A stretch of 64,000 nt of DNA from Bdellovibrionales bacterium (GCA_965219095.1 CBDCMT010000001.1:160001-224000); one strand, 5' to 3'; shown: positions 15,001 through 18,000, counted from the stretch's first letter. Numbers: made by a program.

Positions 15001-18000
15001 GCCCCCTCTCCTAAAAACCTTCTAAAAAATTGGGGAAGACGAAAGGCTACTAGAAAGATATCAGTTATAGTTTGAGGAAAAAAGCTTGAAAGCGAGATAT
15101 CTCGAATAAGACCTAAAATACGACTTGTCATAGTACCTAGAGACATTAAAGCTGCAAACCAGATGATCTTTCTTTGTCCTTTTTTTTCCATAAACGTCTT
15201 TTTCCTTGCCTTTATTAAAAAACTGCGATACTAAAATTTAACTATGGGAGGTGTCCATTGGCAAACCATAAATCTGCAACCAAAAGAGCTAGGCAGTCAG
15301 AAAAGAAAAAAATCCACCATTTATCCATTAAAAGGACTTTAAGAACCTTAGAAAAAAAGCTTAGGATGGATTTGGAAGAGAAAAAAATTGATGAAGCTAA
15401 AAAGAGCTTCCACGTTTTTATGACAGAAATGGCAAAGGCTGGTCAAAAAGGTATCTTCCACAAAAACAAAGTCTCTCGTAAGGTAAGTCAAATAGCTCAG
15501 AAGCTCCATAACCTACAAAAATAAGCTTAAAAATATAATGGGCTTAATGCTGTGCATTACCAAACTCTTTCCTCCTAAGTGAGCAGAACAGGCATTGCTC
15601 ACAATTTTCTTCTAGAGCAGTTTTATTTTTGATTTTTTAAGTTTTTCAATGCAGTCCAACGTAAGTCGGTTTCTTAACAGCCCTTGACTTCTACTGAGGA
15701 AACTTTTCTTCTTTTTCTCATTTTATTTCCTAACATCTTCCCAAAGCGTTTAAAATCTTATGACTGGTATTTTTTAAATGTCTGTATAAGACTTTGAAAA
15801 TTCATAGGTCAATATTTTTTGCCTCCTCAAAAGAATCTGTGGGTTCCCGGGAGGAGTCTTTTCTTTTTGATAAGCCACATTAGAATCACAGTAGTTGTTA
15901 AAATAAAATTCAAGAAGCTCAGGTTCAATATAAATGGCTGTGTTTTTAAAAGATTCCTTTCTTTCATATTCAGAAGAGTAAATGATCTCACCTGCCTTTG
16001 CTCTGTTGTAAACTTCATCACTAGCAGCTATGAAGAGATGTCCCTCATGAACAAAAAGAGCTTTCTTGTTATGACACTCAAAATTCATAAAAGACCCCGA
16101 CATGCCATATAAACCAGGACATCTATGGCCTAGGCTCCTTTTGATCACTCTTTCATTTTTTCGTATTTTCATCCAACTAAGATTGTGGCAAGTATGGCTT
16201 TGTATGTAATCTTTTATAGCTTTTAGTTCATTTTTTTTCATCTTTTTTAAATGAGATTTTGTTAAAACTGAAGTAATTCTTGCTTGAAGATAGGGGTCTT
16301 TAAAGCAGGAATCTAAGTCTTCTTTGTTTGCTACCCTTTCTATATCGATCTCAAAAGCAGGGATATTGCCTTTTTTGCGGTATCGTTTAGGCATAGGAAT
16401 CAGGGCTTGATCCACTCCTGAATAATGAAGTTCATCATCCAGAACATAACCAGGACTTACAAGACAGTTGTGAGGTTTAAGACATTTTTTTTGAAGAGAA
16501 AAGATATTCTTTCTTGGAATATCAAAATCACCGTTATGATTATAAACCGTAATAACTTTATAATCTTTACTAGGTGCTACACAATGACCTGCTGTAAGAA
16601 GAAGAGGGTCTTTACATTTTTTTGCTCCTCTTTTAAGTCTTATAACAAGTCCTGAACAAATGACTGTTGTTTCTACTCTTACAGTTGCATTTCTGATGGT
16701 TTCATCAACAAGGGCCTTAAAAAAATGACAAGGTGGGTGAGGGCAAAAAAGAGTTGTTATGGAGTTAAGTTTTGAGAAGGGGTTTTCTTCATCACAAGCC
16801 TCTAAGAGGATGGGAAGAAAGATAAGAAAAAAAAGAATCAAAAACCTCATACTTAAGTTCTATTTTAAGTAAGTCGGTTATATGACCGCCCTATCCAAGA
16901 TTAAATTTTTCTTAAGAGGGAGGATTTTATGGAAGAAGGGATTAATTTAAAAAAGAAGATACAGCTTTGTCGAGAGGAGAATTCCAACAAGAAGCTTATC
17001 CGCTACCCAGAAGCTCTTAAGAGAGAGATTCTAGATTTTTTGAAAGAGGAAAAGGTTTCTAAATTTTGTAAAGAAGCAAAAGTCAGCCTCTCTACAATCA
17101 ATAACTGGAAGAAGTCTTATGTTTCAACAGTATCCCCTAAGAAGTCTCTTTTTAAGGCTGTTTCTTTGAAAAAGGAAAAGTCATGTGATGAAAGAGAAGG
17201 TCTTAGTTTTAAAGGGTCTAGATTGGGAAGTTCACTCCTCCCGAAAATCTGTGGAAGAAAAGTAGTAGACATCCTCCAAAAGGGTCACATCAGGCAAAGC
17301 AAGGAGTCTGTGAACTAAATTGTGTAACTGAAGATAATACAATAGGAGTACTGCATTAAGCTGTAGTATTCTTAAACTTAAAAAAACATCTGAAACTAAT
17401 GGATTAGTAGTAAACACGGACAATTAGGAAAGGATAAGAATTTTATCTATGCAACGACTCCTCAAGAAATAACCATCCCCTAAGAAAAATTATCTTTATA
17501 AGGTGGTTTTTCTTAGGTAGAACTTTTCTCTTTTTCTTGAAATTTGGATTACAGGCTCTTCTAAAAAGCAGGGGCTTTGATTTTTAAAGAAGTGCTTTAA
17601 GATATGTCCTTTTTTTAAAAGTTAAAAAAATCTTCTTTGATAAAACTTGATCTCCAAGCATTAAAAGTTTTAAAAGATTTTGTAAAAAAGAAATTTTTTA
17701 TTTATTTTTTAAGGTATTTTGATTCATAAGAGTGATACTCTTTCATTATAGAACGTGCAGACCAAAGCAGAAATAGCATGTTAGGATAAACCATAAGGCC
17801 TAAGCCGATATCCAGTACGTTAATTACGTCATTGAGAGATAAAAGAGCTCCCATAACTATAGTGAGGCTGTAAAAAATCACAAAAGAATAAAAGCCAAGA
17901 CCTTTTCTTCCTTTGAAAAGAAACTGCCAACATTTTTCACAATAATTGGAATAACCTAAAATGGTTGTAAAAGAAAATAAAAAAACAGCGGTTCCTAATA

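What a model noticed while it worked through the whole genome (the two positions that open the first line are those of the whole stretch)
15661..16883. Fixed-length 38- and 48-bp ISL3 mini-elements, 59 copies, and solo IS ends that carry host genes
The genome holds 59-75 elements made of two ISL3 ends fused at short shared words, at exactly 38 or 48 bp and almost no other length, plus IS66-end elements of about 70, 181 and 258 bp. Such solo ends bound dispersed copies of non-IS genes: a trypsin-like exported protein (about 10 copies, this place), a 280-aa exported protein (15) and others, so host genes are amplified using bare IS ends.
Evidence so far: Strict match: 19 of 38 bp and 40 of 48 bp; looser match 28 and 47, only 3 other pairs under 200 bp. 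The ends are those of the 1.52-kb ISL3 (55 of 56 such elements hold an ISL3 transposase, 36 with 8-bp duplication). Minis keep the duplication in 6 of 19 and 3 of 40. IS66 identity of the second end from a full element at C1:544939-547548; 181- and 258-bp forms have 8-bp duplications. Protease copies share one IS66 end with different flanks, and two carry the same 38-mer. 105 of 2026 borders of duplicated non-IS genes fall within 4 bp of these ends, about 6 expected. Minis sit between convergent genes in 24 of 59 vs 14 of 56 for full ISL3. MITE table seen in PMC3852290 starts at 136 bp (passag [...]
(Added by a program. Inside this text positions count along the whole contig: contig position 160,001 is position 1 of the stretch shown here. 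"Call 12" and the like, gene names such as g00115 and contig names such as C1 are that model's own, and its searches are not shown. The text may have been shortened before it was handed on; [...] marks where a part breaks off. The agent that wrote the report below was given it as the finding of a first reader that could run no searches.)

Follow-up and report, generated by a model that had tools for sequence, protein, structure and literature searches.

The report
Fixed-length scars of collapsed insertion sequences
In a bacterium packed with jumping genes, dozens of 38- and 48-base pieces are most likely copying-error scars left at the ends of one jumping gene rather than tiny mobile elements, and one host protease gene was moved between two bare ends of another jumping gene, a known kind of event.

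Summary
The minis are real: 29 of 38 bp and 47 of 48 bp, with no other facing ISL3 end pair below 314 bp. The 48-mer is not a left end fused to a right end. It is the right end folded back on itself, completing an imperfect hairpin. The 38-mer is right end plus left tip, joined at a 7-bp word. Target duplications survive only where the second tip begins like the left end (12 of 42), and never in right-right 48-mers (0 of 34; full elements 37 of 60). One 48-type joint sits inside an element whose own duplication is intact. Best reading: template-switch scars of abortive transposition or IS collapse, akin to Tn10 nearly precise excision and ISApl1 loss. Mobility of the duplicated minis is not excluded. 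Gene carriage is shown for one family only: a 1383-bp protease cassette between two IS66 right ends, with an 8-bp duplication and 24 empty sites; five copies share that end with different flanks. The genome-wide claim is not supported: 50 of 56 borders at ends face outward. The IS66 181- and 258-bp forms are ordinary MITEs. No earlier scan note on such minis was returned.

The parts
15661..15700 (+). Bare IS66 right end (about 40 bp), facing into the cassette; shared by 5 copies with 5 different outer flanks
15701..15820 (.). 120-bp piece of unknown origin between the IS66 end and the 38-mer; seen only with these 5 copies; supplies the new stop of the protease
15821..15858 (+). 38-bp ISL3 remnant (right end nt 1-30 plus left tip), no target duplication; joins the protease 3' end to foreign DNA and is read in frame (about codons 331-343)
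   Evidence: mini-free paralogues differ left of 15859
15774..16850 (-). 358-aa predicted exported trypsin-like protease; His89, Asp147, Ser251 invariant in 3 paralogues; the only full-length ORF among the 5 cassette copies
   Evidence: atlas top hits Trypsin_2/Trypsin at 0.97; alignment; no Pfam or PDB sequence hit; ORFs. Triad assignment and signal peptide are my reading of the motifs
16869..17230 (+). IS66 left end and start of its first gene, facing away from the protease, truncated
1114..1161 (-). 48-bp remnant, both tips right-end type, no duplication, between an LD-carboxypeptidase and an amidase gene; hairpin -18.8 kcal/mol
7401..7438 (+). 38-bp remnant with an exact 8-bp target duplication
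38663..40184 (+). Full parent ISL3 (1522 bp); its transposase reads into the right end, so the inner switch words are the codons of its C-terminal tail
23355..26289 (-). ISL3 copy interrupted by an IS630-like element, duplication intact
   Evidence: IS630-like label from DDE_3 and HTH hits of the same ORF cluster, and recall
49135..49464 (+). Double-switch end: left tip, inverted right-end spacer, then right-end interior; uses both switch words in one molecule

Best explanation
The 38- and 48-mers are fixed-length scars made in place by replication template switching at the right end of one ISL3, not independent mobile units. That end has an inner inverted copy of 7 bp of the left tip (nt 24-30) and an imperfect hairpin closing at nt 12/37. 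A switch at the 7-bp word deletes the body between the two ends and leaves 38 bp, keeping the target duplication if the parent had one. A fold-back at nt 37 copies the right tip and leaves 48 bp. If synthesis returns to the left end the product is a hybrid tip with the duplication. If the right tip had been joined to another target (one-ended abortive transposition, or a second inverted copy), two unrelated flanks are joined with no duplication, so the scar marks a deletion or rearrangement. Both words end at nt 15 of the tip, which suggests a fixed block such as bound transposase (inferred). Separately, IS66 transposase acting in trans mobilises true MITEs (121, 181, 258 bp) and moved a protease gene lying between two bare right ends. 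SHOWN: sequence anatomy, duplication pattern, empty sites, in-place joint, cassette insertion. INFERRED: template switching, transposase dependence, immobility of the minis.
For: Anatomy and hot spots. Duplication 0 of 34 right-right 48-mers vs 37 of 60 full elements (p=2e-10), 12 of 42 other minis (p=4e-4) and 4 of 10 hybrid 48-mers (p=1.5e-3); none of the 34 has even one mismatch only. Of 19 right-right 48-mers with both flanks repeated elsewhere, 0 map to an empty site at -8, 2 are co-linear deletions (36 and 727 bp) and 17 have unrelated flanks; 4 38-mers do map at -8. C2:2128737-2130809 is one ISL3 with its duplication intact (22 empty sites), carrying a 48-type joint at its original right flank and an inverted 959-bp body piece. 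A double-switch end at window 49135. The right end folds with nt 12-18 paired to 31-37, and the 48-mer completes that hairpin. The 7-bp word is the longest of 25 right-left microhomologies. Tip-converted ends (7 of 29 38-mers; 12 left ends with right-type tips) and an IS66 26-bp fold-back predicted at 0.96 and found once show switching is common here. Nine abutted end junctions, all with 5-bp spacers, fit a circle pathway. Cassette C2:1979618-1981000: exact duplication, 24 empty sites; 18 of 66 facing IS66 pairs duplicated vs 0.11 expected.
Against: Twelve minis have perfect duplications, and identical non-parental forms recur at different sites (5 left-left 38-mers, 2 duplicated; 8 identical hybrid 48-mers, 2 duplicated), which is how a MITE would look. 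Folding alone does not predict the lengths: stronger fold-backs (34 and 171 bp from the right end; 54 and 165 bp from the left) are predicted but not found. The 48-bp word is only 4 bp and ties with many unused words. The C2:2128737 locus fits a nested inverted insertion as well as a one-ended attack, so it does not choose between those routes. 23 of 60 full elements also lack an exact duplication. A search for swapped flanks gave nothing above control. No AEP-TOTE (PF22548) match, used here as a proxy for IEE, in a 94% complete genome. No before-and-after allele pair from related strains was available.
Confidence: 0.7

Rival explanations
1. The minis, or at least the forms with a left-type second tip, are very small MITEs mobilised in trans by the ISL3 transposase; most lost their duplication later through adjacent deletions.
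For: 12 of 76 have exact duplications (0.3 expected), 4 at verified empty sites. Identical hybrid sequences occur at several sites. Both flanks show the target consensus. IS66 MITEs in the same genome are clearly mobile.
Against: The commonest form (34 copies) never has a duplication. Inner divergence of 38-mers (1.4%) is close to that of full elements (1.0%) and 48-mers are at 3.4%, too little to erase all 34 by age. The in-place joint at C2:2128737. A 43-53-bp circle would be hard to form (general knowledge, recalled).
Confidence: 0.17
2. Transposase-independent collapse: pairs of inverted ISL3 copies, or the two ends of one copy, form a hairpin on single-stranded template and are deleted by slippage, as in Tn10 nearly precise excision. 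Transposase only made the earlier insertions.
For: Predicts no duplication for right-right 48-mers and duplication for single-element products, as seen. Right-right and left-left abutted junctions exist, so inverted dimers form. Copy-choice origin of nearly precise excision is stated in PMC12524634 (passages).
Against: The 36-bp co-linear deletion would need two insertions about 44 bp apart in one IS66 copy. No collapse products of left-out pairs are seen although 4-6-bp words exist. It does not explain why both words stop at tip nt 15. This is a variant of the best explanation: both make scars.
Confidence: 0.3
3. The minis are kept by selection as terminators or as a dedicated system that amplifies host exported-protein genes.
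For: The 48-mer is a strong hairpin (z=-8.1) in A/T-rich flanks. Several exported-protein families are multi-copy. The protease pair tested has dN/dS 0.39.
Against: No convergent-gene bias. 38-mers fold no better than shuffles. 4 of 5 cassette copies are truncated or broken. 50 of 56 end-adjacent borders face outward. No ISL3 mini bounds a duplicated host cassette.
Confidence: 0.06

Closest known systems
Tn10 nearly precise excision (copy-choice deletion between short repeats inside inverted ends); PMC12524634 passages; the fixed remnant of about 50 bp is recalled, primary papers not seen
   Same: Deletion between short words inside inverted IS ends that leaves a remnant of fixed length
   Different: Here it concerns a simple ISL3, gives two lengths in 76 natural copies, and the main product has two copies of the same tip and no duplication
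ISApl1 (IS30 family) loss by abortive copy-out transposition with template switching, and single-ended Tn6330 derivatives that keep the last 42 or 90 bp of IRR; PMC5821093 passages, bioRxiv 10.1101/2023.06.07.543989 passages
   Same: Strand switch at 2-4-bp microhomologies at paired ends; a short retained end still bounds a gene cassette with duplications checked against empty sites
   Different: ISApl1 deletions have ragged joints near the tips and remove the IS; here the joints are inside the ends and exact. The protease cassette has no full IS at either end. No PF22548 match here
Quasipalindrome template-switch mutation; PMC7202029 passages
   Same: Nascent strand used as template, imperfect inverted repeat made perfect
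   Different: Normally local; here it is coupled to loss of 1.5 kb or to a change of flank and creates a new IS tip
Prokaryotic MITEs, TIME composites, MICs and transporter IS; PMC4133298, PMC9330008, PMC3852290 passages
   Same: IS66 121/181/258-bp forms and the 1383-bp protease cassette fit: IS-like ends, no transposase, target duplication, several sites
   Different: The ISL3 right-right 48-mers fail the duplication test; the one ISL3 MITE in the table seen is 179 bp
IS30 IR-IR junction network; PMC9333248 passages
   Same: Abutted ends with a fixed spacer, joining of distant copies, deletions and inversions
   Different: IS30 end-targeting is described as giving only IRL-IRR junctions; here right-right and left-left junctions also occur

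Membership tests
ISL3 family (parent element) | DDE_Tnp_ISL3 transposase | tested here: met
   PF01610 E=5e-68; 128 matches in the genome
ISL3 family (parent element) | Terminal inverted repeats and 8-bp target duplication (family values recalled; ISPpu12a 24/21 and 8) | tested here: met
   24-bp imperfect IRs; 37 of 60 exact duplications, empty sites at -8
ISL3 family (parent element) | Circular intermediate with abutted ends | tested here: inconclusive
   9 of 9 chromosomal abutted junctions have 5-bp spacers; free circles not testable
MITE (ISL3 38/48-mers) | Short, multicopy, IS-like terminal repeats, no transposase | tested here: met
MITE (ISL3 38/48-mers) | Target duplication of the parent's length at insertion sites | tested here: not met
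   0 of 34 for the main 48-mer; met in 12 of the other 42
MITE (ISL3 38/48-mers) | Spread from a master copy (private variants shared across sites) | tested here: inconclusive
   Identical hybrids recur but could be recurrent switches; one shared point variant also occurs in a parent-type end
MITE (ISL3 38/48-mers) | Mobilisation in trans | not testable with these tools
   needs a transposition assay
MITE (IS66 121/181/258 bp) | Near-identical copies at different sites, each with an 8-bp duplication | tested here: met
   181 bp 3 of 3; 257-259 bp 4 of 4; stand-alone 120/121 bp 2 of 5
Non-autonomous passenger cassette (MIC, transporter-IS or TIME-composite type) | Non-IS gene between facing ends of one IS family, with duplication and empty site | tested here: met
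   C2:1979618-1981000; 1 of 5 copies, the other four have no partner end with a matching 8-mer
Nearly precise excision or abortive-transposition remnant | Joint at a short word repeated inside the ends, fixed length | tested here: met
Nearly precise excision or abortive-transposition remnant | Parent allele with the full element at the same site | not testable with these tools
   closest genomes share about 40% MurJ identity; laid contigs do not bridge repeats
IEE-assisted excision | IEE (AEP primase-helicase) gene present | tested here: not met
   PF22548, my recalled proxy for IEE, 0 matches; genome 94% complete
Trypsin-like (S1) serine protease | His-Asp-Ser triad in trypsin-type motifs | tested here: met
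   no Pfam cut-off hit; activity untested

The most novel reading that the evidence does not exclude
A fold-back at the ISL3 right end regenerates a complete second tip, so one end becomes a two-ended 38-48-bp unit that the transposase can still move or use as a portable joint. These would be among the smallest IS-derived mobile elements, and each right-right 48-mer would mark an abortive one-ended transposition that deleted or re-joined the chromosome, a countable record of how this genome was scrambled and of where replication stalls on a transpososome (tip nt 15).
Probability: 0.2. Interest if true: 0.7.

Novelty: new variant of a known kind. Interest (0 to 1): 0.42.

Why it matters
Abortive transposition with template switching has been inferred from ragged ISApl1 deletions and from laboratory Tn10 excisions. 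Here one genome holds 76 exact products with two defined switch points, which gives sharp, cheap predictions: recode either word and one product should vanish. It also warns that short multicopy IS-end pairs should not be called MITEs without a duplication test by tip type. The protease cassette shows that IS66 ends of about 40 and 71 bp suffice to move a gene, an example of a known route. The switch words are not evident in related ISL3, so the effect may be specific to this element.

Tried and rejected
Swapped-flank search: partner rate no higher than the same-orientation control, A/T-rich 8-mers give many chance matches. Fold-back running on into the flank: inverted match between flanks only slightly above shuffles (4.0 vs 4.6 +/- 0.25 mismatches in 8; run 0.79 vs 0.63), weak, not used. 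Hairpin strength as sole cause: predicts lengths not found. Terminator role: no orientation bias; no Rfam match at 14500-18000; no RNA holder listed, which is no evidence either way. Minis in other genomes: an exact 38-bp pattern scan of genome contigs gave 1 match, a chance hit with no IS context; the pattern was narrow, so this is weak. Close transposase relatives: 2 of 400 other genomes of the phylum at E<=1e-60, 48-51% identical, single matches; their genomes were not searched for minis. Synteny test with relatives not attempted beyond because they are too distant. Four runs of one study laid on 600-17700: contigs run into each half of the 48-mer at 1114-1161 from both flanks but none listed bridges it by 31 bases a side, no alternative allele was seen in the rows shown, and the runs may be the source of the assembly. 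280-aa, ankyrin and 808-aa families as end-bounded cassettes: not supported. C1:356828-370351 (13.5 kb, right-right, low-complexity 8-mer) could be a composite but 1.2 chance pairs are expected. Literature searches for an ISL3 fixed-length remnant or same-end fold-back listed no such report in titles and abstract starts; the library lacks most subscription and older papers, and no supplements were read.

Full report
SETTING. The window is G000:C2:160001-224000 of a 3.11-Mb, 34% G+C genome in two contigs. About 34% of it fell under my IS mask. The nearest of 20 relatives share about 40% MurJ identity, so no sister allele could be compared.

THE PARENT AND THE MINIS. The parent is a 1.52-kb ISL3 (PF01610). 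I call the end downstream of the transposase right (R) and the other left (L). Among 450 candidate ends, nearest facing pairs are 38 bp (29), 48 bp (47), then none until 314 bp; 60 are full length. The 76 minis have 72 distinct flank pairs. The 38-mer is R nt 1-30 joined to the reverse complement of the L tip through the shared word TTCCCGG. The 48-mer is R nt 1-37 joined to the reverse complement of the R tip through TTCT: 34 have two R-type tips, 10 a second tip whose outer bases are L-type, 3 a converted first tip. R ends break at nt 37 (46) and nt 30 (21), against 1-4 at other positions. The transposase reads into R, so both words are codons of its PPGTHRFF tail. Seventeen related ISL3 loci, where the end is present, keep a similar tail but, read by eye, not the inner copy of the left tip.

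SCAR OR MOBILE UNIT. Exact 8-bp duplications: full elements 37 of 60, 38-mers 8 of 29, hybrid 48-mers 4 of 10, R-R 48-mers 0 of 34, with no near miss below 2 mismatches. Where both flanks are repeated elsewhere, 4 38-mers sit at true empty sites (offset -8). Of 19 R-R 48-mers none does; 2 replace 36 and 727 bp of co-linear DNA and 17 join unrelated DNA (three apparent 38-bp offsets there are copies of the same mini and were set aside). At C2:2128737-2130809 one element keeps its duplication and has 22 empty sites, yet carries a 48-type joint at its original R flank, an inverted copy of its first 959 bp, and an R tip joined to its own position 1323. The joint therefore formed in place. The locus fits either a one-ended attack on its own body or a nested inverted insertion followed by collapse. 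Window 49135 shows both words used in one molecule. R folds with nt 12-18 against 31-37 and the 48-mer completes this hairpin. Against a purely structural cause, stronger fold-backs (34, 171, 54, 165 bp) are predicted and not found, and the 4-bp word ties with many unused ones. What the two used words share is that they end at tip nt 15; I infer a fixed block there, probably bound transposase. All nine abutted end pairs have 5-bp spacers, which fits the circle pathway reported for ISL3 (PMC3812183 passages; bioRxiv 2023.06.07.543989 passages). For mobility: identical hybrid forms recur with duplications at different sites, so it is not excluded for those forms.

IS66 ENDS AND CARGO. 172 ends were found (part of that output was cut, and the counts come). 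Of 66 facing pairs within 15 kb, 18 have an exact duplication (0.11 expected). Ten are small non-coding elements (one 70, two 121, three 181, four 257-259 bp), seven are full, deleted or IS-interrupted IS66, and one carries a host gene: C2:1979618-1981000, a 71-bp R-R mini, the protease gene, the 38-mer and a 40-bp bare right end. Its empty target occurs 24 times. That copy is frameshifted. Five copies share the bare end with five different flanks; only this one has a partner. Four paralogous copies at 89-91% lack the IS66 end and the 38-mer. The likely history is: the 38-mer joint replaced the last codons with foreign DNA, an IS66 end was left beside it, and that end was then used repeatedly with whichever second end lay on the far side. 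The window copy is the only full-length one of the five. It is trypsin-like by language-model features, with His89, Asp147 and Ser251 conserved; Pfam and PDB sequence searches gave nothing.

HOW GENERAL IS CARRIAGE. A search for ends that share non-parental interior with other ends but differ in outer flank gave one host-gene family above two members, the protease, plus two pairs sharing 319 bp of host gene and a few pairs of non-coding or IS DNA. Of 60 duplicated ISL3 pairs among 377, none has a mini as outer end of a host cassette. Borders of duplicated non-IS segments lie at these ends 56 of 1278 times (2.5 expected), but 50 face outward, 4 of the 6 inward ones are the protease, and 346 borders touch some IS. 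The mask used 35 ORF clusters that I judged to be mobile-element genes, mostly from copy number and N-termini; only some were checked with Pfam. Four pieces of the 280-aa gene share one outward-facing R tip 86-89 bp downstream, an old shared insertion, not a bracket. The convergent-gene bias did not reproduce.

COMPARISON. It works like Tn10 nearly precise excision (PMC12524634 passages; remnant length recalled) and like the template-switch model for ISApl1 loss, where 42-bp retained ends also bound cassettes (PMC5821093 passages). The hairpin completion is a quasipalindrome switch (PMC7202029 passages). The IS66 forms are members of the MITE and passenger-cassette classes (PMC4133298, PMC9330008, PMC3852290 passages). 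The main 48-mer fails the duplication test for a MITE. Nine searches listed no report of fixed-length ISL3 remnants or same-end fold-backs; the library is incomplete and no supplements were read. Earlier scan notes returned did not cover these minis.

VERDICT. Observation largely real, interpretation half right. Scars of either route about 0.8 together (0.7 for the account given, overlapping with 0.3 for the transposase-independent variant), mobility of some forms 0.17-0.2, dedicated host function 0.06. New variant of a known kind; interest 0.42.

Noticed in passing
G000:C2:2085499-2087060: A left-left 38-mer, a 5-bp spacer and a full ISL3 are enclosed together by one 8-bp duplication; it looks like a dimer or switch product frozen at one site.
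   Followed up: partly
G000 C1:416926, C2:9024, 324645, 567550, 921170, 1939445, 1953496, 1997422, 2085536: Nine abutted ISL3 end junctions, all with 5-bp spacers, including right-right and left-left; IS30 end-targeting is described as left-right only.
   Followed up: partly
G000:C2:1624709-1624734; C1:273679; C2:775775, 1979618, 2236008: IS66 also gives same-end fold-backs: a 26-bp left-left unit and 70/71-bp right-right units, one with a duplication.
   Followed up: partly
G000:C2:15235, 128602, 890160: The 181-bp MITE is the 121-bp MITE plus a captured 60-bp right end, a non-autonomous element extended by a further bare end.
   Followed up: partly
G000:C2:1114226-1115470: A 1.25-kb piece of an 808-aa multi-copy predicted exported protein lies between a truncated 48-mer and a whole 48-mer; another copy has a left end at the same nucleotide.
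   Followed up: no
G000:C2:442860-448652: Three tandem 2.5-kb copies of a distant (30%) protease paralogue, each unit containing an ISL3 left end and IS66 DNA.
   Followed up: no
G000:C1:7698-9179 and other loci: A 7-member ankyrin-repeat protein family with a predicted signal peptide; suggests a host-associated lifestyle (inference).
   Followed up: no
   Followed up: no
G000:C2:1826916-1828685 and 9 more ORFs: A 10-member large serine recombinase family, pieces of which lie at window 29904-33353.
   Followed up: no
window 11582-12998: An IS630-like insertion splits an IS256-family transposase; contigs from all four runs join 11581 to 12999, probably from uninterrupted copies elsewhere.
   Followed up: no
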